From assembly GCA_963802335.1 (NCBI GenBank), contig CAWDIE010000008.1, positions 436,601 through 500,600 on the forward strand: a DNA stretch of 64,000 nucleotides, written 5' to 3'. The DNA is from an uncultured Planctomycetota bacterium. Lineage in GTDB: Bacteria; Planctomycetota; PLA2; JAEUHO01. Below the pieces are notes generated by a model, which worked only from the letters and a program-made list of their open reading frames with translations, searched no databases and was not told the origin of the DNA. The position numbers and the translations under genes are program-made. Positions 43,811 through 62,652 of this stretch are shown piece after piece. The stretch's first letter is position 1. Every line of letters begins with the position of its first letter.

Positions 43811-43895
43811 CTCACGATCCATCTACGAAGAGACGGGGCCGTCCTGATGGAACGACCCCGTCTGGAGTTGGTACGGGCGAAAGGACTTGAACCTC
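43811..43895 (-). repeat. Copy B of the 85-nt duplication (overlaps the genuine tRNA-Arg 3' end and its terminator hairpin)
   Basis: Direct comparison with 43582..43666. The offset is 229 nt. The two mismatches are c/t at 43593/43822 and g/t at 43638/43867. Confidence 0.9.
43831..43863 (-). terminator. Stem-loop immediately 3' of tRNA-Arg (putative terminator/processing hairpin); an identical hairpin lies at 43602..43634
   Basis: Minus strand AGACGGGG-tcgttccatcaggacgg-CCCCGTCT, followed by tcttcg. 8-bp GC stem plus inner pairs. There is no clear U-tract. Confidence 0.4.
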
Positions 43896-43945
43896 CAACC
43901 TCCTGATCCGTAGTCAGGTGCTCTATCCAATTGAGCTACGCCCGC
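43869..43945 (-). tRNA. tRNA-Arg (anticodon ACG)
   Basis: Minus strand gcgggcgtagctcaattggatagagcacctgactacggatcaggaggttggaggttcaagtcctttcgcccgtacca, 77 nt. 7-bp acceptor stem (G1-U72). D-arm GCTC/GAGC. Anticodon stem CCTGA/TCAGG with loop CUACGGA. T-loop TTCAAGT. Encoded CCA. Confidence 0.9.
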
Positions 43946-53089: not shown

Positions 53090-53209
53090 GTGCCGCGTAG
53101 GGCCAGCGACGGCCCAGGTCGCACCAAGCCGTGGGGGCGATGGCCCATGCCCTACCGAACCCGCGCTGATATCCTTCGTTTCCCCCAAAAAGCCATCGGA
53201 GGTCGTTTC

Positions 53210-54499
53210 ATGCGTTCGTCGTCCCTCGTCCGGTTCTCGGCCCTCGTGCTCGTCTCCACGCTCGCCCTCGTCGGGTGCGGTGACGATGGCCAGGGCACGG
53301 CGACGCAGACCCCCTACGGTCAGTCCCCGTATGCCCAGACCCCCTATGGAACGTCCGGATCCACCGCGGGATGGCCTGCCGAGCTGGCCGCGGAGGTCGA
53401 GGCCGCCATGGCCAAGGCACGGGTCGCCTTCCTCGCGCAACAGGAGGAGAGCGGCGCATGGGGTGATCCGGAGCTCAAGATCCCCGCGAACGTCGGTCAC
53501 ACGGCGATGGCCACCTCCGCCGTGATCGCCGCCACGTCGGCGACGCAGGTGCGTGACGACCCGAACATCGGCAAGGCGCTCGCCTGGCTCGCCGCCCAGC
53601 AGAAGGACGACGGCTCCATCTGGGACAACCCGCAGTTCGTCAACTACATGACCAGCGCGGCCGCGGGTGCGCTCGCGATGGCCAAGGTCGGGAGCTATCG
53701 GAACACCCTCGTCGATGCCCGCGGGTTTCTCGCCGACAGTCAGATCGCCGGCGACGAGAACGACCTGTCGTACGGAGGCTTCCCCTACAAGCAAGACCAA
53801 GGGCAGGATGCCGACCTCTCCAACCTGCAGTTCGCCGCCCAGGCCTTGGCCGACGCCGGTCTCGAGAAGGACCACGTGGTCTGGCAGCGCATGCAGACGT
53901 ATCTGAACCGCGTGCAGAATCGCTCCGAGTCGAACGTGATCACCGTGCCGGTCGAGATCGACGGCAAGGAGCAGAAGGTCGTGTCCGGCGATGATGGCGG
54001 GGCGGGCTACGGACCGGGGCAGAGCAAGGCCGGCTACCTCAAGCGCAGCGACGGCACGTTCGAGGCCCGTTCCTACGGTTCCATGACGTATGCGCTCCTC
54101 AAGTGCATGCTGCTGGCCGGTGTGGACGTGGATGACGCGCGCGTCGTCGCGGCGCTCGAGTGGATCAGCCGCAACTTCGTGCTCGACCGCAATCCGGGAT
54201 TCGAGTCGTCGCCCAATGCCGAAGAGGCCGGACAACAAGGCTGGTACTACTACGTGTACACGCTCGCGCGCACGCTGGGCGAAGTCGAGCGGGCCATGGG
54301 CAAGCCGCTCGTCGTCAAGAGCCCCGACGGGACGAAGCACAACTGGCGGGCCGCGTTGGCCCGCGCGATCCTGGATCGGCGTCGTGACGACGGCCTGTGG
54401 GTCAACGAGGTCGAGCGGTGGGAGGAAGCGTCGCCGATCCTGGCGAGCAGCTACGCCATGGTCGCCCTGGCCGAGGCGAGCGGCCGCCTCGGGCGCTGA
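53210..54499 (+). CDS. Lipoprotein with prenyltransferase/squalene-cyclase-type alpha/alpha-toroid repeats
   Basis: Inner part of ORF 53090..54499 from ATG 53210. Lipobox LALVGC. Repeats of the form QQ..dGsW (FLAQQEESGAWG, LAAQQKDDGSIWD, RRRDDGLWVNE). Confidence 0.75.
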   Translation: MRSSSLVRFSALVLVSTLALVGCGDDGQGTATQTPYGQSPYAQTPYGTSGSTAGWPAELAAEVEAAMAKARVAFLAQQEESGAWGDPELKIPANVGHTAMATSAVIAATSATQVRDDPNIGKALAWLAAQQKDDGSIWDNPQFVNYMTSAAAGALAMAKVGSYRNTLVDARGFLADSQIAGDENDLSYGGFPYKQDQGQDADLSNLQFAAQALADAGLEKDHVVWQRMQTYLNRVQNRSESNVITVPVEIDGKEQKVVSGDDGGAGYGPGQSKAGYLKRSDGTFEARSYGSMTYALLKCMLLAGVDVDDARVVAALEWISRNFVLDRNPGFESSPNAEEAGQQGWYYYVYTLARTLGEVERAMGKPLVVKSPDGTKHNWRAALARAILDRRRDDGLWVNEVERWEEASPILASSYAMVALAEASGRLGR

Positions 54500-54510
54500 C
54501 GGCCGTCCCC

Positions 54511-55236
54511 GTGCGGGCTCTTCGCGCCGCCCTGAGCACGTATGCCCGCAAGCATGCCGGATGGTTGGGACCGTTCATGGGTGCGTGCGTGCCCGCGCTG
54601 GGGCTCGTCGGCATGCGTGTGCTGACGGAGGGGTCTCCGGCGGGTCTGTTCCAGGTCGGCCTTACGGCCCTGACGTTGGCCATCCTGGTCGGCGCGCGCC
54701 CGCGGACGACCCGCCGAGGTCGCGGTGCAGTGGAGATCGCGGGAGGCGCCCTGCTCGCCGGCCTCGCCTACGCCCTGGTCGGCGCCGGGGCCGGCGGCGG
54801 CCTCGCCCTCGGTCTCCTCGCCCTCGGTAGCGGGGGCGGAGCCGCGGGTCTCGCCGCCCTCGCGCGGGCGCTGGGGGTGCCGTCCTTTCCCGCTTTCGCC
54901 GTTGCTTCCCTGGTTCTGCTGACGGCCACGCTGGGCCTTCACTGGGCGGACCCCAGCTCGGCCTGGGTTGCCAAGCGAGCACGTCGGGCCTACCGGCAGG
55001 CCGTGCTGCAGGTGGATCCATCCCTCGCGCTGGCCTACGACGGCGCCCACTACGACCGGCTGCGCGCCCCCGCGGTCTACTTCTCGGTGCCACTGGCTTC
55101 CTCGGCCTACGTCATGCCCCGGGCCTCGAGCACGGGAGCGGCGTGGCTGGTCGTCGGCCTGGTCGCAGGCGGAGCGGCGTGGGTCATCGACAGAAAAGGG
55201 AGAAGTGTGGGGCGGCGGCGCTCTCCGGCCAGCTGA
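54511..55236 (+). CDS. Hypothetical Gly/Ala-rich polytopic membrane protein
   Basis: Inner part of ORF 54397..55236; in-frame GTG 54511 chosen (uncertain). Helices FMGACVPALGLVGMRVL, LFQVGLTALTLAILVGA, IAGGALLAGLAYALVGAGAGGGLALGLLALG, FAVASLVLLTATLGL, AAWLVVGLVAGGAAWVI. Confidence 0.55.
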   Translation: MRALRAALSTYARKHAGWLGPFMGACVPALGLVGMRVLTEGSPAGLFQVGLTALTLAILVGARPRTTRRGRGAVEIAGGALLAGLAYALVGAGAGGGLALGLLALGSGGGAAGLAALARALGVPSFPAFAVASLVLLTATLGLHWADPSSAWVAKRARRAYRQAVLQVDPSLALAYDGAHYDRLRAPAVYFSVPLASSAYVMPRASSTGAAWLVVGLVAGGAAWVIDRKGRSVGRRRSPAS

Positions 55237-55239
55237 CCT

Positions 55240-55254
55240 GGGAGGGAGGGAGGG
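55240..55254 (+). other. Canonical G-quadruplex motif GGGAGGGAGGGAGGG (four G3 tracts, 1-nt loops)
   Basis: Seen directly, 4 nt after the TGA stop at 55234..55236, and followed by a purine run agagagagg. Confidence 0.6.
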
Positions 55255-55445
55255 AGAGAGGCCAGGGCGCTCAGGCCGCCCCACAAGCGAGATCTTATGT
55301 CAAAGAATATAGATGGACAGCACAAAATCGTGATGCGGGTCGAAGGTCATGGAAGCGGGCCCTACAGGCCGGTGGCACGCGCAGGGGCCCGGAGCTCGCC
55401 GGCGGCCGCGGGGCGGGCGTGAGCGCCGCGCCCACGCCGCCCGCC

Positions 55446-56879
55446 ATGCCGGCGCCGCCCTCGAGCCTCTCCACGCGCCACGTCGTCGTGGCCGGGGCCG
55501 GGGGGCTCGGTTGCCCCGCCGCCCTGGCGCTCGCCGAGGCCGGCGTCGGACGCCTCACCCTGCTCGATCCGGATGTCGTGGAGTCCTCCAACCTCCCGCG
55601 GCAGGTTCTCTACGACGACGCCGATCGAGGCCGTGCCAAGGCGCTCGTTGCCGCGGAGCGCCTTCATCGCCCCGCGCAGACCGTGGTCGGGATCCACGCC
55701 GCGCTCGACGAAACGAACGAGAACCAGTACCTGGCCGACGCCGATCTCCTCTTGGACGCCACCGACGGTGCGCGCACGAAGGACTGGCTCAATGCGCTCG
55801 CCGTGCGTCGGGGCCTGCCCTTCATCCACGCGGCCGCGCTGCGAAGTGAAGGGCGCCTCCTCGACGTGCCGCCCGGAGGAAAGCCCTGCCTCGCGTGTCT
55901 GTTCGGACGGCTCGAGGAGGAGACCGGACGCTGCGCGGATCTCGGGGTTTGGAACGGTGCGGTGGGAGCGACCGGGTTTCTCGCGGCGGCCGCTGCCGTG
56001 CGGCGATTGACACATCCCGATCACGGATCGACCGGCTACCTCGTTCTCGATCTGGAGAGTGGGCGCGCCATCACGCTCGGCGCCGCGCCTTCGTCCACGT
56101 GCCCGGTCTGCGCGGATGCGTCGGCCCTGCGGCCCGCCGCGCTGCCGTCCGCTGCACCGTGTCGCGTGCCAACCGAAAGCGACGCGCCGATGGTGCCCCC
56201 TGCCGCGTCGCTGGACCTACGCGAGGAGGTCTGTCCGCTGAACCTCCTCCGCGCGCGCCGCGCCGTCGAGGATCTCGAACGAGGTGTGCGCCTCGAGATC
56301 CTGCTCGGCGAGGAAGGCGCCGCCAGTGTGCCCGACGGACTGCGCTCGCTCGGGCACGTCGTGCTCGAAGAAGCGACGCTCGGTCGAGGGCGTCGCCTGG
56401 TCGCGATGCGAGGCGGGCGCGTGCTCCCCGCCGACCGCCTCGATCGCGATGTCCTGCTGCGTTTTGCGCGCCAGGTCGTGCTGCCCGAAGTGGGGGAGGC
56501 GGGGCAGGCGCGGCTGCTCGACGCGCGGGTCCACGTCGAGGGGCAGGGGCCCCTCGCGGACACCGCCGTGCTCTACCTGCGTGCCGCTGGCGTGGGGCAC
56601 GTCGACCACGCGCAGGGGGCTCGCGCCGAAGGCCTCCTCGCGGTCGCGCGGATCGACGCCGAGGGTGGGGGGGGCGCGTACGCCGCCTATGTCGATGGCG
56701 CCGGCAGCGGACGCGTCGTCGAAGGCGATGGGGCGGAGGTAGTGGGCGGGTCCTATCCCTCGGCGGAGGCCCGGGCCCTCGGCGCGCTCCTGGCCGACCG
56801 CGTGGAGCGTCGGATCGTGTTGGGGGGGGCCCCTTCGCTCGAGATTCGTATCGCTGCCGGGCCTCGCATCGAGACGTAG
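55446..56879 (+). CDS. E1-like ThiF/MoeB adenylyltransferase fused to a TusA/SirA-like domain and a degenerate second ThiF-like N-terminal half
   Basis: Inner part of ORF 55143..56879 (ATG 55446; GTG 55419 possible). Domain 1 (about 55476..56120): VVVAGAGGLGCPAALALAEAGVGRLTLLDPDVVESSNLPRQ, CLAC and CPVC zinc pairs. Domain 2 (about 56211..56417): LDLREEVCPLNLLRARRAVEDLERGVRLEILL. Domain 3 (about 56448..56876): LLRFARQVVLPEVGEAGQARLLDARVHVEGQGPLADTAVLYLRAAGVGHV, with the Gly-loop degenerate. Confidence 0.75.
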   Translation: MPAPPSSLSTRHVVVAGAGGLGCPAALALAEAGVGRLTLLDPDVVESSNLPRQVLYDDADRGRAKALVAAERLHRPAQTVVGIHAALDETNENQYLADADLLLDATDGARTKDWLNALAVRRGLPFIHAAALRSEGRLLDVPPGGKPCLACLFGRLEEETGRCADLGVWNGAVGATGFLAAAAAVRRLTHPDHGSTGYLVLDLESGRAITLGAAPSSTCPVCADASALRPAALPSAAPCRVPTESDAPMVPPAASLDLREEVCPLNLLRARRAVEDLERGVRLEILLGEEGAASVPDGLRSLGHVVLEEATLGRGRRLVAMRGGRVLPADRLDRDVLLRFARQVVLPEVGEAGQARLLDARVHVEGQGPLADTAVLYLRAAGVGHVDHAQGARAEGLLAVARIDAEGGGGAYAAYVDGAGSGRVVEGDGAEVVGGSYPSAEARALGALLADRVERRIVLGGAPSLEIRIAAGPRIET

Positions 56880-56889
56880 GCTGGTAGCC

Positions 56890-57810
56890 ATGGCTTCCGA
56901 CGTCGCTCTCTTCCGATCGCTCGCCGCGCTCCATCGCGCAGGCATCCCGTGGCCGCAGGCCGTGGAGAGCGCCACCTCCGGCAAGCCGGAGTGGATGTCC
57001 GTCCGGCGCGCCCTGGAGCGGGGGGACACGATTGCGGGAGCGTTCCTGCCTCATCTCGATCCGCTGGATGCGGCCATCCTCACGGCGGGCGAGCGTGACG
57101 GGTCGCTCGAGCAGGCCTTCGAGGCCATGGCGAACGCCCACGAGGCGACCACCAAGCGCCGCCGCGAGGGCGGGGTGCAGATCGCGTATCCGATCCTGCT
57201 CGCGCACGTCGCCGCCCTCTTGATGGCCGTGCCCGACCTCATGCAGGGGAAGCCCCTGGCGGCGCTCGGGTGGGTGGCGCTCATCCTCGTCCCGGTGTGG
57301 GCCTTCCTCCTGCTCCGCCGACGGCAGTACGGTCTCGAGCGCCCCCAACCGGGAGCCGGGCACCCGCCGCACCCCTCGAGGTCGTTTCTCGCGCGGAGCC
57401 GGATCGAGGAAGCGGACGCACGCGCCTTGGAGGCGCTCGGACGGCTCTACCAGGCCGGCATCCCCATCCGGGACGCCTTGGACCTGGCCGTGCGTGCGGG
57501 CTGGGGTGGCCGGGTCGCAGTGGATCTGGACGTGGCCCGGCGTCGCGTCGATCGCGGCGAGGAACTGGGGGGGGCGTGGAACCTGCTCCCCGAGGCGTGG
57601 CACGGCCCCTTGGTGTCCGGGGAGGCGGCGGGCCAGCTGGGGGAAGCCGCACTGAGCGCGGCCGAGTCCATGCGCTTCGACGCCAGCATTCGTCGGAAGC
57701 GGTGGGCGCAGATCGTGCCCCTGGTCCTCATGCTGGGGATCGGCGGGATCATCGCGGCGCGCCTCTTCTCGTTCTATGGGTCGTACTTCTCGCAGATGGG
57801 GCGGTACTGA
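56890..57810 (+). CDS. GspF/PilC/TadC-like protein (two T2SS-F domains), orphan
   Basis: ORF 56890..57810, 306 aa. Two copies of the T2SSF helical pattern (LFRSLAALHRAGIPWPQAVE...ILTAGERDGSLEQAFEAMA and LEALGRLYQAGIPIRDALD...LVSGEAAGQLGEAAL), each followed by TM helices. No secretion ATPase, secretin or pilin gene is in the window. Confidence 0.65.
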   Translation: MASDVALFRSLAALHRAGIPWPQAVESATSGKPEWMSVRRALERGDTIAGAFLPHLDPLDAAILTAGERDGSLEQAFEAMANAHEATTKRRREGGVQIAYPILLAHVAALLMAVPDLMQGKPLAALGWVALILVPVWAFLLLRRRQYGLERPQPGAGHPPHPSRSFLARSRIEEADARALEALGRLYQAGIPIRDALDLAVRAGWGGRVAVDLDVARRRVDRGEELGGAWNLLPEAWHGPLVSGEAAGQLGEAALSAAESMRFDASIRRKRWAQIVPLVLMLGIGGIIAARLFSFYGSYFSQMGRY

Positions 57811-57990
57811 CCTGGACAGCCTCGCTCGGGGCCGCATCGCATGCCGCCGGCCGTGGCGGCGTACGTAGGTCGTTTGCGTGCGAAGGGATGCGTGCCCACG
57901 GCGACTCGGCGGATGCGTTTCAACCCAGGGTCGAACGCGGTAGGATTGCGGTCTTCTTCCCTCGCGCCGTTTCCAACCCGGAGGCCCGGC

Positions 57991-59130
57991 ATGTCCGACG
58001 TCGTCCAGTGTCCCACGTGCAACAAGAAGTTCCGCTTGCCGCCGGCTCCGCCGCCCACGTTCACGTGCAGCGGGTGCGGCACCGTCCTCGACCTGTCGGC
58101 CTTCCAGGCACCGGCCCAGCCCGCGCAGCCTGCTCAGCCGGCGGCCCCGGTGCAGCCGAAGGCCCCCGCCGGCCGTCGCGCCGGTGGCCGTCGCGGTGGC
58201 CGGGCCGCCGCCGCGCCGCACACCACGCGTCGTCCCGGCCACCGCAAGGCCCGGGCCGGGCGGGGGAGCCATGCCGCCGAGGATGACGGCTACGAGGGTG
58301 GCGAGCGCCCGCACTACTCGTCGCGCGACAAGGGCCCCAACATGCCGCTGATCCTCGGCTCCCTGGCGCTCGGCATCGGCGCGATCGTGGTGGCGGTGGT
58401 CGTCTTCATGAAGGAAGAGAAGCAACTGGAGAAACCGCCCGAGACGGTGGTGGCCCAGCAGCCTGCGGCCAATCCCATGGCGGACCTGCCCGACGAGCCG
58501 ATCCCGGACCCCGACGACGTGGTTCCCGAGTCCACGACCGACAAGCCCGAGAAGCCGAAGGACGTGGAACTCGCCCGTCCGGAGTTGAGCGAAGGCAGCT
58601 ACAAGGACGTTCCGTTGCCGGAGGGCAAGGAGAACTACCGCTGGAGTCAGGCGACGATCAAGACCTATCCCTACCCCGACCACGTGACGGCCGAGGAGAA
58701 GAACAAGATCGAGGAAGCGATCAACGGCATCGTCGAAATCGGGGGGCGCGACCTGCGCGACGGCACGAAGTACCTCGTCGCACTCGACGCCTACGCGGAC
58801 GGCTCCGAGGAACTCAAGCCGGGCGAGGAGTTCAAGGCCGTCGGCCGCGTGATCAGCGAGTTCAAGAACATCCTCGACAACAACGACATCAACGACCGCT
58901 TGACGATGGCCAAGCTCATGTCGCTCGACATGCTGCTCCGTAAGATCGATGGGATGCAGGAGCGCGAGTTCAAGGAGATCGACCCGATTCGCCACGCCTC
59001 CGACGAGAGACACGCGATGCGGGTCATCAAGCGCTGGAACTGGTGGTACGACCTCGAGAAGTGGCGCATGCGTCGCGTGCCGTACGACCCGCGCGAGGAC
59101 CAGCTCGACGCCGACCTCGAGACGGAGTGA
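57991..59130 (+). CDS. Zinc-ribbon (MJ0042-type) single-pass membrane protein with Pro/Ala-rich linker and acidic extracytoplasmic domain
   Basis: Inner part of ORF 57841..59130. ATG 57991 is preceded by [38 protein letters not shown] (CxxC-x16-CxxC). TM helix [23 protein letters not shown]-terminal domain ends [19 protein letters not shown]. Confidence 0.7.
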
Positions 59131-61273: not shown

Positions 61274-62652
61274 GTGATCTTCAGCACGCCCCTCTTCGTC
61301 CTGGTCTTCCTGCCGCTGGCCTTGGCGGGGTACTACCTCGTCGCCGGGCGTCGGCGCTGGCGGGTGGCCTTCCTCAGCCTGGCGTCGGTCGTGTTCTACG
61401 GCTACTGGGACGTGCGCCTGGTGCCTCTGCTGCTCTTCTCGGTCACGTTCAACTGGGTGCTCGCGCGCGTCTTCGGCCGCACGGGACGGCGCGGGTGGCT
61501 CACGTTCGGCGTCTTGCTGAACCTCGCCCTCCTCGCGTTCTTCAAGTACGCGGACTTCCTCGCATCCAGTCTGCTGGGCCTCCTCGGTCTCGGCCCGTCC
61601 TCGTTCCACATCCTCCTGCCGCTCGGCATCTCGTTCTTCACCTTCCAGCAGATCGCCTACCTCGTGGACCTTCATCGGGGCGAGAAGCGCACCTACTCCT
61701 TCGCGGACTATTTCCTCTTCGTCACGTTCTTTCCCCAGTTGATCGCGGGGCCGATCGTGCGCCACGAGGAGATCATCGATCAGTTCCACCGGGACCCGCG
61801 CGGTGACCAGACGAGTGAGAACCTGGGGCGTGGCGCCATCCTGTTCCTGATCGGCCTGGGCAAGAAGGTCATCTTCGCCGATGCGATCGCCCGCATCGGG
61901 GACCCGCTCTTTTCCGCGGCCGTGGGGGGGAGGTGCTCTCTTTTCCCCAGGCGTGGGCCGCCGGACTCGCGTTCACCCTGCAGGTCTACTTCGACTTCTC
62001 GGGCTACTCCGACATGGCCATCGGGATGGGGCGCATGTGCGGCTTCCGGCTTCCCATGAACTTCGACGCTCCGTACCGCGCGACCTCGATCTCCGACTTC
62101 TGGCGGCGCTGGCACATCACGTTGTCCCGGTTCCTTCGCGACTACGTCTACATCCCGCTCGGAGGCAATCGCCTGGGCCGCGCGCGGCAAGGCATCAACG
62201 TCATCCTCACGATGCTGCTGGGGGGGCTCTGGCACGGCGCGGGCTGGACCTACGTCGTCTGGGGCGGGCTCCACGGCGTCGCCTTGGCCGTTCAGGGCGC
62301 ATGGAATCGGCGGGTATCGTGGCGCATGCCGGCGTGGCTCGGCTGGCTCTTGACCATCAACTTCTTCATTTTCACCATCGTCCTGTTCCGGGCCGCGGAC
62401 TTCCGCGCCGGTGGAGAAATGGCCCTGTCCATGTTGGGGGCCCACGGCTTCGAGGGCATCGCGACGGATGACGTGCTCCTGCTGGCCGCCGGCGCCTTGG
62501 TCGCGCTGGTTGGACCGACCAGTCAGGTCGTCGCGCTTCGGCGGTTGAAGCCCCGCGGGGGCGTCGCCGTGGCCGCAGCCGTCCTCTTCGTATACCTCGT
62601 CTTGCGCATGGCGTCGGGGAGTCACCCTGAGTTCATCTACTTCCAGTTCTGA
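61274..62652 (+). pseudogene. MBOAT-family membrane O-acyltransferase (AlgI/DltB-like), frameshifted in a G7 run at 61924..61930
   Basis: ORFs 61274..62059 and 61933..62652 are the N- and C-halves of one MBOAT (FFKYADF, ISFFTFQ, FPQLIAGPI // [35 protein letters not shown], catalytic His in GLWHGAGW). One extra G would read ...[17 protein letters not shown]. Probably an assembly or homopolymer error, or phase variation. Confidence 0.85.

What the first reader, a model, noticed from the sequence alone, without database searches (positions are those of the whole stretch)
55446..56879. One polypeptide combining an E1-like ThiF/MoeB domain, a TusA-like sulfur-carrier domain and a degenerate second half-E1
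Seen in sequence: the ORF has three parts.
- (i) A complete ThiF/MoeB-type adenylation domain. It has GAGGLG, a DPDVVESSNLPRQ block, and both Zn-site pairs (CLAC and CPVC).
- (ii) After a Pro/Ala linker, about 70 aa matching the TusA/SirA pattern: LDLREEVCPLNLL...RLEILL. The conserved Cys sits in a CPxN context instead of CPxP.
- (iii) A second segment that starts like the extreme N-terminus of MoeB/ThiF (RFARQVVLPEVGEAGQARLLDARVHVEG..LYLRAAGVGHV). Its Gly-rich loop is degenerate (EGQGP) and it ends after about 140 aa.

Established knowledge:
- E1-like sulfurtransferases such as Uba4/MOCS3/MoeZ carry a C-terminal rhodanese domain.
- TusA relays persulfide sulfur from IscS.
- Eukaryotic E1s are pseudo-heterodimers of an inactive and an active adenylation domain.

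Inference: this may be an E1 in which TusA replaces rhodanese and a decayed half-E1 mimics the dimer partner. I do not recall this architecture being described. No MoaD/ThiS-like GG-terminated protein is visible in the window.
Basis: partly seen in the sequence, partly recalled or inferred. Interest (0 to 1): 0.7.

Follow-up and report, generated by a model that had tools for sequence, protein, structure and literature searches.

The report
Single-chain asymmetric sulfur-carrier E1 enzyme
This gene encodes a ThiF/MoeB-type activating enzyme that has lost its own N-terminal "arginine finger", carries a TusA sulfur-relay domain where relatives have rhodanese, and ends in a shrunken, catalytically dead half-copy of itself that supplies the missing finger; this resembles the active/inactive domain pair of eukaryotic ubiquitin E1s, and relatives encode the dead half as a separate, so far unannotated small protein.

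Summary
ORF 55446-56879 (477 aa) has three parts: a complete ThiF/MoeB adenylation domain, a TusA domain with an invariant Cys, and a ~140-aa segment homologous to the N-terminus of ThiF, Uba4 and MoeB (E = 5e-15 to 4e-10). The ORF is not an artefact: about 80 homologues at 45-60% identity, all named ones from uncultured Planctomycetota, share the architecture, and a second assembly is identical.

The catalytic domain starts at MoeB residue ~28, so it lacks the trans-acting arginine finger (ThiF R11, MoeB R14). Segment iii carries that finger (invariant R342) beside a degenerate Gly loop, and its finger helices are the most conserved stretch of the protein.

In relatives from other lineages, finger-less E1 genes (with or without TusA) lie beside ThiS, CysM-type and JAB genes. 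They are accompanied by a free-standing ~120-130-aa version of segment iii (hhalign 99.2%, E = 1e-19) or a longer degenerate E1 paralogue. Two relatives fuse E1, TusA and ThiS.

The protein is therefore most likely the single-chain form of a two-part bacterial sulfur-carrier E1.

Not shown:
- the physical packing of segment iii on the catalytic domain;
- the carrier substrate, which is not encoded nearby in Planctomycetota.

Verdict: new variant of a known kind.

The parts
55446..56879 (+). Whole ORF, 477 aa plus stop: ThiF(ΔN-finger), TusA, mini inactive E1
55467..56120 (+). Segment i (aa 8-225): active adenylation domain. It starts at MoeB residue ~28, so MoeB residues 1-27 including the Arg14 finger are missing.
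   Evidence: Pfam ThiF 173.7 bits; phmmer against MoeB and ThiF; Foldseek ThiF 1zud TM 0.82, rmsd 2.1 Å
55494..55511 (+). GAGGLG nucleotide-binding loop (aa 17-22); G17, G19, G20 and G22 are invariant
55587..55604 (+). SNLPRQ (aa 48-53); R52 aligns with MoeB R73 / ThiF R70, the ATP-coordinating Arg
55755..55769 (+). DATDG (aa 104-108); D107 aligns with MoeB D130
55887..55898 (+). First Zn-site pair, C148-x-x-C151 (aligns with MoeB C172/C175)
55932..55934 (+). Invariant Cys163 in the crossover loop; aligns with MoeB C187 and ThiF C184, and with a Cys in the same loop of Uba4
56100..56111 (+). Second Zn-site pair, C219-x-x-C222
56121..56201 (+). Pro/Ala-rich flexible linker (aa 226-252); pLDDT below 50 at aa 238-246; 26% pairwise identity across the family
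56202..56411 (+). Segment ii (aa 253-322): TusA/SirA-like domain
   Evidence: Pfam TusA 36.9-40.5 bits; TM0983 1jdq E = 1.6e-5
56232..56243 (+). C263-P-L-N266; Cys263 is the presumed persulfide carrier; C263, P264 and N266 are invariant (CPxN instead of the canonical CPxP)
56445..56876 (+). Segment iii (aa 334-477): degenerate mini E1 domain (finger helices, β1-αA-β2, three β-strands, long C-terminal helix)
56445..56525 (+). Finger helices (aa 334-360), RDVLLRFARQVVLPEVGEAGQARLLDA; the most conserved stretch of the protein (60.6% pairwise identity)
56469..56474 (+). Invariant R342-Q343; R342 aligns with the ThiF Arg11 / MoeB Arg14 arginine finger
56535..56561 (+). Degenerate Gly loop of segment iii (VEGQGPLAD); no GxGGxG in any of the 42 members
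56760..56825 (+). Conserved C-terminal helix of segment iii (…GALLADRVERRIV…; G446, A450, D451 and R455 nearly invariant)
55237..55445 (.). Lineage-specific 210-nt spacer upstream; relatives have a 4-nt gene overlap here
54397..55236 (+). Conserved upstream membrane-protein gene (true start probably near 54577); its stop overlaps the start of ThiF-TusA by 4 nt in most relatives
53090..54499 (+). Conserved upstream gene for a secreted squalene-hopene-cyclase-like (α/α-toroid) protein
56890..57810 (+). T2SSF (GspF/PilC-like) gene; always adjacent in relatives but on either strand

Best explanation
The gene encodes a single-chain, asymmetric E1-like sulfur-carrier-activating enzyme.

Proposed mechanism:
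1. Segment i binds ATP·Mg and adenylates the C-terminal glycine of a MoaD/SAMP/CysO-type β-grasp carrier.
2. Segment iii is a decayed second adenylation domain. It stands in for the partner subunit of a ThiF/MoeB dimer and gives its invariant Arg342 to the one active site, because segment i has lost its own N-terminal finger helices.
3. The TusA domain sits on a flexible linker. It takes a persulfide on Cys263 from a cysteine desulfurase and delivers it to the acyl-adenylate, doing the job of the rhodanese domain in MoeZ/Uba4/MOCS3.
4. Cys163 in the crossover loop probably helps resolve the acyl-persulfide, giving a carrier thiocarboxylate.

Shown here:
- the domain homologies, the residue correspondences and their conservation;
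- the existence of the split (two-gene) form in relatives, and its operon context.

Inferred:
- every chemical step;
- the physical docking of segment iii on segment i;
- the identity of the carrier in Planctomycetota.
For: Segment i:
- It keeps all ThiF/MoeB catalytic residues and both Zn pairs, all invariant in 42 homologues.
- Its closest solved structures are ThiF and MoeB.
- It starts at MoeB residue ~28. All 42 members have only 2-21 residues before the Gly loop.

The finger:
- ThiF R11 and MoeB R14 are arginine fingers given by the neighbouring subunit (PMC13139853).
- In BilD and in eukaryotic E1s the equivalent Arg comes from the inactive domain.
- Segment iii aligns with ThiF residues 3-123, with R342 on R11.
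- Its finger helices are the best-conserved stretch of the protein (60.6%), while its Gly loop is degenerate.

Structure prediction:
- The full-length model has pTM 0.89.
- The finger helices reach pLDDT ~91 in the full-length model but only 56-68 when segment iii is modelled alone. This suggests they pack on the rest of the protein.

Comparative genomics:
- Free-standing ~120-132-aa homologues of segment iii (hhalign 99.2%, E = 1.3e-19) lie immediately after finger-less E1(-TusA)/ThiS genes in L034, L035/36, L037, L039/40, L041 and L042.
- Longer degenerate finger-bearing paralogues accompany finger-less E1s in L029, L030 and L033.

Substrate:
- P0155 (L034) and the L041 gene fuse E1, TusA and ThiS.
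- The operons contain ThiS, CysM-type PALP and JAB genes.

TusA:
- Its Cys aligns with the conserved Cys of TusA/SirA-family structures.
- SirA was predicted to replace rhodanese.
- TusA feeds Moco sulfur in E. coli.
Against: - No carrier, CysM-type or JAB gene lies in the window or within ±10 kb in the Planctomycetota loci. The pathway there is unknown.
- The ThiF/MoeB finger is reported to be catalytically non-essential, so giving the finger may not be the selected function.
- The packing of segment iii on segment i was not measured.
- Foldseek E-values for segment iii alone are not significant (0.06-0.2).
- Segment iii aligns only weakly with segment i (hhalign 21%).
- TusA has CPxN, not the canonical CPxP.
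- The protein scores below every NCBIfam equivalog cut-off for ThiF, MoeB, MoeZ and UbaA.
Confidence: 0.68

Rival explanations
1. Circular-permutation reading. Segment iii only relocates the N-terminal helices to the C-terminus. The enzyme still forms a ThiF-like homodimer through segment i, and the relocated helices complement an active site in cis or across that dimer. The rest of segment iii is a scaffold.
For: - Only the finger helices, β1-αA-β2 and one C-terminal helix are conserved. The middle of segment iii is 17.5% identical.
- Segment i keeps everything else of a normal ThiF.
- Known sulfur E1s are homodimers.
Against: - Segment iii keeps much more than the missing 27 residues and models as a compact domain that spans the MoeB fold (TM 0.57).
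- A graded series of full-length to mini finger-bearing paralogues accompanies the finger-less E1s. That points to a decayed partner subunit rather than a moved helix.
Confidence: 0.17
2. Segment iii is a docking or regulatory module, for the carrier, the desulfurase or the TusA domain. It has no role in the adenylation site. The conserved RQ motif is a structural relic.
For: - The finger is non-essential in ThiF and MoeB.
- In P0155 the position after TusA is occupied by the carrier itself, so this position can hold interaction modules.
Against: - R342, Q343, G353 and Q354 are invariant, and the helices are the most conserved stretch.
- In every locus examined, loss of the finger from the catalytic domain goes with a finger-bearing partner.
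Confidence: 0.08
3. The enzyme is not a sulfur-carrier E1. It adenylates another substrate (tRNA like TcdA, a peptide like MccB or PaaA, or a small molecule), and the TusA-like domain binds something other than sulfur.
For: - There is no carrier gene nearby in Planctomycetota.
- The conserved neighbours are unusual: a membrane protein and a cyclase-like protein.
- The protein falls below the equivalog cut-offs.
Against: - The best matches by far are ThiF, MoeB and Uba4. TcdA, MccB and PaaA match much more weakly.
- The Zn site and the crossover-loop Cys are typical of carrier E1s.
- The nearest relatives sit in ThiS/CysM/JAB operons or are fused to ThiS.
Confidence: 0.05
4. The protein is an anti-phage E1 (Cap2/Bil-like), or the three-part ORF is an assembly or frameshift artefact.
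For: - There are generic PADLOC E1-E2 hits.
- The window contains at least one apparent frameshift elsewhere, in the MBOAT gene.
Against: - The PADLOC hits are 63 bits or less and cover the Rossmann region only. No neighbour matches a defence family.
- There is no E2, DUB or CD-NTase gene.
- The locus is housekeeping.
- About 80 homologues share the uninterrupted architecture.
- A second assembly is identical.
Confidence: 0.02

Closest known systems
E. coli ThiF and MoeB (homodimeric sulfur-carrier adenylyltransferases; PDB 1ZUD, 1JW9)
   Same: - Same fold: TM 0.79-0.83, 33-35% identity.
- Same ATP/Mg residues, the same two CxxC Zn pairs and the same crossover-loop Cys (ThiF C184, MoeB C187).
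   Different: - The N-terminal 27 residues carrying the trans-acting Arg finger are absent from the catalytic domain. They reappear after a TusA domain, inside a degenerate second domain.
- No separate sulfurtransferase is needed.
- Probably not a symmetric homodimer.
MoeZ/MoeBR, Uba4 and MOCS3 (E1-rhodanese fusions)
   Same: One polypeptide joins the adenylation domain to a mobile persulfide-carrying domain through a flexible linker. The adenylation domain has a conserved Cys in the crossover loop.
   Different: - The sulfur domain is TusA (PF01206), not rhodanese (PF00581).
- There is an extra inactive mini-E1 domain.
- Uba4 is a homodimer with its own N-terminal finger region.
BilD (bacterial antiviral E1) and eukaryotic E1s (UBA1; NAE1-UBA3; SAE1-UBA2)
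   Same: An inactive and an active adenylation domain form a pseudo-dimer with one active site, to which the inactive domain gives a key Arg: BilD Arg9, hUBA1 Arg57.
   Different: - The order is reversed here: active first, inactive last.
- The inactive part is reduced to ~140 aa.
- There is no inserted catalytic-Cys domain, UFD or E2.
- This enzyme belongs to the ThiF/MoeB sulfur-transfer branch, which Chambers et al. describe as homodimeric.
Yeast Tcd1-Tcd2 (ThiF-family heterodimer for ct6A)
   Same: One ThiF-family partner (Tcd1) completes the other's active site with an arginine finger while lacking a key ATP-coordinating Arg of its own (PMC13139853).
   Different: - Both partners there are full-length and separate.
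- The substrate is tRNA.
- There is no TusA domain.
SirA/TusA-containing ThiS-JAB-E1 sulfur-assimilation operons (Iyer, Burroughs & Aravind 2006)
   Same: [quoted passage not shown] The relatives found here (L034, L037, L039, L041) sit in ThiS, PALP, JAB and sulfate-activation contexts of that kind.
   Different: - Here TusA is fused to the E1.
- The passages of that paper retrieved here do not mention a small finger-bearing partner or a finger-less E1.
- The Planctomycetota genes have left that operon context.

Membership tests
ThiF/MoeB E1-like adenylyltransferases (PF00899) | Rossmann fold with a GxGxxG ATP loop | tested here: met
   GAGGLG is invariant; Pfam 173.7 bits; TM 0.82 to ThiF
ThiF/MoeB E1-like adenylyltransferases (PF00899) | ATP/Mg residues equivalent to MoeB R73, K86 and D130 | tested here: met
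   R52, K65 and D107 align with them and are invariant
ThiF/MoeB E1-like adenylyltransferases (PF00899) | Structural Zn site made of two CxxC pairs | tested here: met
   C148/C151 and C219/C222 are invariant and align with the MoeB and ThiF pairs
ThiF/MoeB E1-like adenylyltransferases (PF00899) | N-terminal helices carrying the arginine finger (ThiF R11, MoeB R14) ahead of the Rossmann fold | tested here: not met
   The domain begins at MoeB residue ~28. All 42 members have 2-21 residues before the Gly loop. The finger is found in segment iii instead.
ThiF/MoeB E1-like adenylyltransferases (PF00899) | Symmetric homodimer with two active sites | not testable with these tools
   No oligomer prediction and no model coordinates are available
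NCBIfam equivalogs ThiF (TIGR02356), MoeB (TIGR02355, PRK08762), MoeZ (PRK07878), UbaA (NF047750) | Score at or above the curated cut-off | tested here: not met
   179.7 against 275; 135 against 377; 163.5 against 449; 123.9 against 647; 146.9 against 450
TusA/SirA sulfur carriers (PF01206) | Pfam gathering score | tested here: met
   36.9 bits in the full protein and 40.5 bits for the segment alone, against 28.6
TusA/SirA sulfur carriers (PF01206) | Conserved Cys at the N-terminus of helix 1 | tested here: met
   Cys263 aligns with the CPxP Cys of TM0983 (1jdq) and TsuB/YeeD (8k1r); it is invariant
TusA/SirA sulfur carriers (PF01206) | Canonical Cys-Pro-x-Pro motif | tested here: not met
   CP(L/M)N in all 42 members; CPxT in the short-clade relatives
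TusA/SirA sulfur carriers (PF01206) | Accepts a persulfide from a cysteine desulfurase | not testable with these tools
   Biochemical; no desulfurase gene among the window ORFs scanned
E1-rhodanese fusions (MoeZ/Uba4/MOCS3) | C-terminal rhodanese domain (PF00581) with a catalytic Cys | tested here: not met
   No rhodanese hit
Pseudo-dimeric E1 (inactive plus active adenylation domain; eukaryotic E1, BilD) | A second adenylation-fold domain that has lost its ATP-binding residues | tested here: met
   Segment iii is homologous to the ThiF/Uba4/MoeB N-terminus (E = 5e-15 to 4e-10). TM is 0.57 to MoeB across the whole chain, although Foldseek E is 0.06. The Gly loop is degenerate and the SNLxRQ, K and D motifs are absent.
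Pseudo-dimeric E1 (inactive plus active adenylation domain; eukaryotic E1, BilD) | The inactive domain gives an Arg to the single active site | tested here: inconclusive
   At sequence level, R342 aligns with ThiF R11 and is invariant, and segment i lacks its own finger. The spatial position could not be measured.
Pseudo-dimeric E1 (inactive plus active adenylation domain; eukaryotic E1, BilD) | Inserted catalytic-Cys domain and a cognate E2 | tested here: not met
   The crossover loop is short, with the single Cys163. There is no E2/UBC-like neighbour.
Thiocarboxylate-dependent Cys/Hcy synthesis operons (ThiS/CysO, CysM, JAB, E1) | Adjacent ThiS-family carrier, PALP sulfhydrylase and JAB peptidase genes | tested here: not met
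   Absent from the window and from L001-L028 and L031. Present around the non-Planctomycetota relatives.

The most novel reading that the evidence does not exclude
Many bacterial sulfur-carrier E1s are not symmetric homodimers. They are two-part enzymes: a finger-less catalytic subunit plus a small, unannotated, catalytically dead 'mini-E1' that gives the arginine finger and the dimer face. The mini-E1 family gave 599 hits here, mostly named 'hypothetical protein'. The Planctomycetota protein is the single-chain end point, with TusA built in. If so, the active/inactive asymmetry that marks eukaryotic and Bil-type E1s also arose within the ThiF/MoeB sulfur-transfer branch, apparently by stepwise decay of a paralogue.
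Probability: 0.5. Interest if true: 0.75.

Novelty: new variant of a known kind. Interest (0 to 1): 0.62.

Why it matters
E1 enzymes are a textbook case of how a symmetric bacterial homodimer (MoeB/ThiF) is thought to have become the asymmetric eukaryotic enzyme with one inactive and one active domain. A recent structural paper states that all known bacterial E1-like proteins except BilD are homodimers.

- This family and its split relatives would give a second bacterial route to that asymmetry, inside sulfur metabolism. Intermediate stages survive in living genomes: a full-length paralogue, then a ~220-aa one, then a ~125-aa mini-protein, then a fused domain.
- It gives a function to a sizeable family of small 'hypothetical proteins'.
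- It supplies fusion (Rosetta-stone) evidence that TusA can replace rhodanese in carrier thiocarboxylation.
- It flags E1 genes that would probably be inactive or unstable if expressed without their small partner, which matters for anyone reconstituting these pathways.

Tried and rejected
- Internal-duplication test: hhalign of segment iii against segment i gave only 21% probability over 37 columns. This is too weak on its own. Homology was established instead against ThiF, Uba4 and MoeB with the family profile.
- Riboswitch or leader clue: Rfam found nothing but a tRNA in the window. The 210-nt upstream spacer has no promoter or terminator consensus.
- Defence-system reading: PADLOC gave only weak generic hits, and the neighbours gave none.
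- Carrier search: scans for GG-terminated ORFs in the window and in 33 loci, and phmmer with ThiS, JAB and CysM queries against six-frame translations, found nothing in the window or in the Planctomycetota family loci.
- Measuring the distance from R342 to the ATP site: model coordinates are not exposed to scripts.
- Foldseek on the full model is dominated by segment i and cannot show the arrangement of the domains.
- Apparent stand-alone 'TusA + segment iii' proteins (P0114, P0161, P0121, P0136) look like contig-edge fragments, so they were not used as evidence.
- Burroughs, Iyer & Aravind 2009, the E1 superfamily survey (PMC2732565), is not held. Prior description of this architecture there cannot be excluded.
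- Functional link to the GspF-like gene: it is adjacent in all relatives but on either strand, within a block that also includes UvrB. I treated this as synteny only.
Full report
**1.

- Pfam places ThiF at aa 8-207 (173.7 bits).
- Pfam places TusA at aa 256-309 (36.9 bits; cut-off 28.6).
- The last 153 aa on their own match ThiF profile positions 2-48 at 22.5 bits, just under the 28.1 cut-off.

The main ThiF match starts at profile position 18, so the usual N-terminal element is missing. The longest ORF in this frame begins at 55143, but the extra sequence is an Arg/Gly/Gln-rich translation of an AT-richer spacer and looks nothing like ThiF. All 42 aligned homologues have only 2-21 residues before GxGGxG. 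The ATG at 55446 is therefore the credible start, and the 566-aa database call (P0001) is probably too long.

**2. The ORF is real and the architecture is conserved**

A search of 5.8 billion proteins returned about 80 proteins of ~455-500 aa with ThiF+TusA at 45-60% identity. Every named one is a 'ThiF family adenylyltransferase' from a Planctomycetota MAG.

A scan of one genome per species (185,579 species) found 27 loci. The 23 strong matches (L007-L028 and L031) all come from uncultured Planctomycetota.

A profile search without a word index, over 1.84 billion representatives, found only about 18 full-length clusters above 480 bits. Scores then drop to generic ThiF/MoeB at about 200 bits.

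An independently built Logan assembly is 100% identical to the window over 54179-57879. The fusion is not an assembly artefact.

**3. Anatomy and conservation**

*Segment i.* In the 42-sequence alignment A1, the following residues are invariant:
- G17xGGxG22, D41, D43, N49, P51, R52, Q53, K65, D104 and D107;
- both Zn pairs (C148/C151 and C219/C222);
- C163.

phmmer against solved structures shows these correspondences:
- segment i begins at MoeB residue ~28;
- R52, K65 and D107 align with MoeB R73, K86 and D130, the ATP/Mg residues listed in PMC12355090;
- C163 aligns with MoeB C187 and ThiF C184, and with a Cys in the same loop of Uba4.

*Full-length model.* The AlphaFold model has mean pLDDT 88.3 and pTM 0.89. 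Only the linker at aa 238-246 is disordered. Its closest solved structure is E. coli ThiF (TM 0.82, rmsd 2.1 Å, 35% identity), followed by MoeB and Uba4.

*TusA segment.* It aligns with TM0983 (1jdq, E = 1.6e-5) and with the SirA-like TsuB/YeeD. Cys263 lies on the Cys of their CPxP motif. C263, P264 and N266 are invariant, so the motif is CPxN throughout the family.

**4. Segment iii is a decayed E1 half that carries the arginine finger**

A profile of segment iii (A2, 26 sequences) matches these N-termini:
- E. coli ThiF residues 3-123, E = 5.4e-15;
- Uba4 residues 3-81, E = 1.4e-14;
- MoeB residues 3-90, E = 3.7e-10.

'RFARQ' aligns with ThiF 'RYSRQ', so the invariant R342 corresponds to ThiF Arg11.

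PMC13139853 states that ThiF Arg11 and MoeB Arg14 are arginine fingers supplied 'from the neighboring subunit', although they are catalytically non-essential. It also describes yeast Tcd1-Tcd2, where one ThiF-family partner only completes the other's site with its finger. In human UBA1 and in bacterial BilD the equivalent Arg comes from the inactive adenylation domain.

Modelled alone, segment iii has pLDDT 82. Its best fold matches are MoeB (probability 0.97, TM 0.57 over the whole MoeB chain) and ThiF (TM 0.53-0.57), although the Foldseek E-values are not significant (0.06-0.2).

Mean pairwise identity across the family:

| Region | Identity |
|---|---|
| Finger helices (aa 334-360) | 60.6% |
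| Segment i | 58.4% |
| TusA | 58.0% |
| C-terminal helix of segment iii | 48.4% |
| β1-αA-β2 of segment iii | 40.9% |
| Middle of segment iii | 17.5% |

No member has a GxGGxG loop in segment iii.

The finger helices reach pLDDT ~91 in the full-length model but only 56-68 when segment iii is modelled alone. This is indirect evidence that they pack on the rest of the protein.

**5. The decisive comparative evidence: the same piece exists as a separate gene**

The representative search also found ThiF-TusA proteins of ~300-330 aa (P0138, P0145, P0162, P0200). They lack both the N-terminal finger and segment iii. P0108 is a divergent member that has segment iii.

Their loci read: PALP | ThiF-TusA | ThiS (91-92 aa, ending AIAGG plus one residue) | an unannotated ORF of ~120-132 aa | CysM-type PALP | JAB (± ATP-sulfurylase PUA_2) | APS kinase.

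The small ORFs begin '…RYARQ…G..GQ…' followed by a degenerate Gly loop.
- As a profile (A3) they match segment iii with hhalign probability 99.2% and E = 1.3e-19.
- Individually they score only 15-20 bits against Pfam ThiF, which explains why they are unannotated.
- A search with A3 found 599 proteins. Most of the 120 listed are ~100-135 aa, and where a source gives a name it is mostly 'hypothetical protein'.
- Two of these, sampled from long contigs, sit in the same operon. One follows a finger-less 244-aa E1 without TusA (L042). The other follows an E1-TusA-ThiS fusion (L041).

In three further loci (L029, L030, L033) a finger-less E1 of ~250 aa next to ThiS is accompanied by a second E1-like gene that keeps the finger.
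- In L033 this gene is ~255 aa. The Gly loop and RRQ are kept, and DTAPG replaces DATDG.
- In L029 it is 219 aa and in L030 224 aa. The SNLxRQ, Lys and Asp motifs are lost.

Many other top hits are finger-less E1s of 225-260 aa.

So there is a graded series: active E1 plus near-complete paralogue, then ~220-aa paralogue, then ~125-aa mini-protein, then fused domain. The direction of change has not been established.

**6. What it most likely does**

P0155 (L034) and the L041 gene are E1-TusA-ThiS triple fusions. In P0155, Pfam ThiS scores 45.6 bits, and the β-grasp domain is closest to SAMP1 and archaeal-type MoaD. Their operons match the ThiS-JAB-E1-SirA sulfur-assimilation class of Iyer et al. 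2006. That paper proposed that SirA plays the role of rhodanese (PMC1779556). TusA also supports Moco sulfur supply in E. coli (PMC3831636 and PMC5372717).

I therefore propose the following mechanism:
1. A desulfurase loads Cys263 with a persulfide.
2. Segment i adenylates a β-grasp carrier, with R342 completing the site.
3. The tethered TusA domain transfers sulfur to the adenylate.
4. Cys163 helps resolve the intermediate to a thiocarboxylate.

All the chemistry is inferred by homology.

**7. What remains open**

- The Planctomycetota genes have no ThiS, CysM-type or JAB gene within ±10 kb.
- No sulfur, Moco or thiamin gene was found among the other window ORFs scanned, which are ordinary housekeeping genes.
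- Instead the gene is preceded by a ~200-235-aa membrane protein and a ~430-aa secreted cyclase-like protein. In most relatives its start overlaps the membrane-protein gene's stop by 4 nt.
- It is followed by a T2SSF-like gene that flips strand between relatives. That adjacency looks like synteny rather than function.
- The carrier and the pathway in these organisms are unknown.
- The docking of segment iii could not be measured, because no coordinates are exposed.

**8. Novelty**

- None of the papers retrieved by my searches describes a ThiF-TusA fusion, a finger-less sulfur E1 or a mini-E1 partner.
- Chambers et al. state that all known bacterial E1-like proteins except BilD are homodimers.
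- The key 2009 survey of the E1 superfamily could not be read.
- Databases hold these proteins only under generic names.

I classify the finding as a new variant of a known kind: an E1-like sulfur-carrier activase with a new three-part, asymmetric, single-chain architecture. It points to a wider class of two-part bacterial E1s that has apparently gone unrecognised.

Noticed in passing
window 55237-55445: A 210-nt AT-richer spacer separates the membrane-protein gene from the ThiF-TusA gene. In most of the six relatives' loci examined the two genes overlap by 4 nt. The spacer has no Rfam, promoter-consensus or terminator-consensus hit. The public gene call (P0001, 566 aa) starts upstream of the spacer (about 55179) and reads through it, so it is probably mis-started.
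   Followed up: partly
window 61274-62059 and 61933-62652: The MBOAT (membrane O-acyltransferase) gene is split into two overlapping ORFs in different frames. The syntenic gene in L001 is one intact ORF of 458 aa. This is an apparent frameshift, so either a pseudogene or a sequencing error.
   Followed up: partly
L034 5834-6232; L035 8918-9280; L037 9279-9674; L039 9252-9647; L041 6001-6381; L042 6001-6387: A family of free-standing 'mini-E1' proteins of ~100-135 aa, with an RxxRQ finger and a degenerate Gly loop. The search returned 599 hits. Where a source names them it is mostly 'hypothetical protein', and most listed hits have no Pfam call. In every locus examined they lie directly after the E1/ThiS genes, in most cases inside PALP-E1-ThiS-PALP-JAB operons.
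   Followed up: yes
L034 4605-5837 (P0155); L041 4754-6004: Triple fusions of E1, TusA and a ThiS/SAMP1-like β-grasp carrier in one polypeptide. P0155 ends …AIAGGV and lies in an operon that also encodes a JAB peptidase.
   Followed up: yes
L037 9004-9282; L039 8963-9238; compare L029 11903-12289 and L030 10731-11006: The ThiS-type carriers in the TusA-clade operons end in GG plus one extra residue (A or R). This implies that the adjacent JAB peptidase must trim them. The carriers in L029 and L030, which have no TusA, end exactly in GG.
   Followed up: no
L029 13569-14228; L030 12015-12689; L033 13479-14321: Second, finger-bearing but catalytically degenerate E1 paralogues of 219-255 aa lie in the same operons as finger-less catalytic E1s. 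They look like intermediate stages between a full paralogue and the mini-E1.
   Followed up: partly
window 53090-54499 and 54397-55236 (relatives L001-L006): A conserved gene pair lies upstream. One gene encodes a secreted squalene-hopene-cyclase-like α/α-toroid protein. The other encodes a multi-pass membrane protein with the conserved motif RQAVLxVDP…GHDRLH…VPLASS. Neither matches any family above threshold, and their link to the E1 is unexplained.
   Followed up: partly
window 56890-57810: A lone T2SSF (GspF/PilC-like) gene of 306 aa with no other secretion or pilus genes nearby. It is always adjacent to the E1 gene in relatives, on the same strand in L001 and the window and on the opposite strand in L002-L006.
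   Followed up: partly
P0085, P0086: The nearest non-family relatives of segment i are fusion proteins of 483-508 aa. Pfam calls MoaE and ThiF. The rhodanese-like C-terminus is my reading of the sequence and was not scanned. Their N-terminal finger sequence (RQxxLPEVGEAGQAKL) is strikingly similar to that of segment iii.
   Followed up: no
window 57841-59130: A 429-aa protein with an N-terminal Zn-ribbon-like CPTC…CSGC motif, a low-complexity Pro/Ala/Arg region and one predicted transmembrane segment. It is conserved between the T2SSF gene and uvrB in all relatives and matches no family.
   Followed up: no
window 43872-43945 (-): A tRNA gene, the only Rfam hit in the window. Spurious long ORFs read through it and recur in related loci (…GVAQLDRAPDYGSGG).
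   Followed up: no
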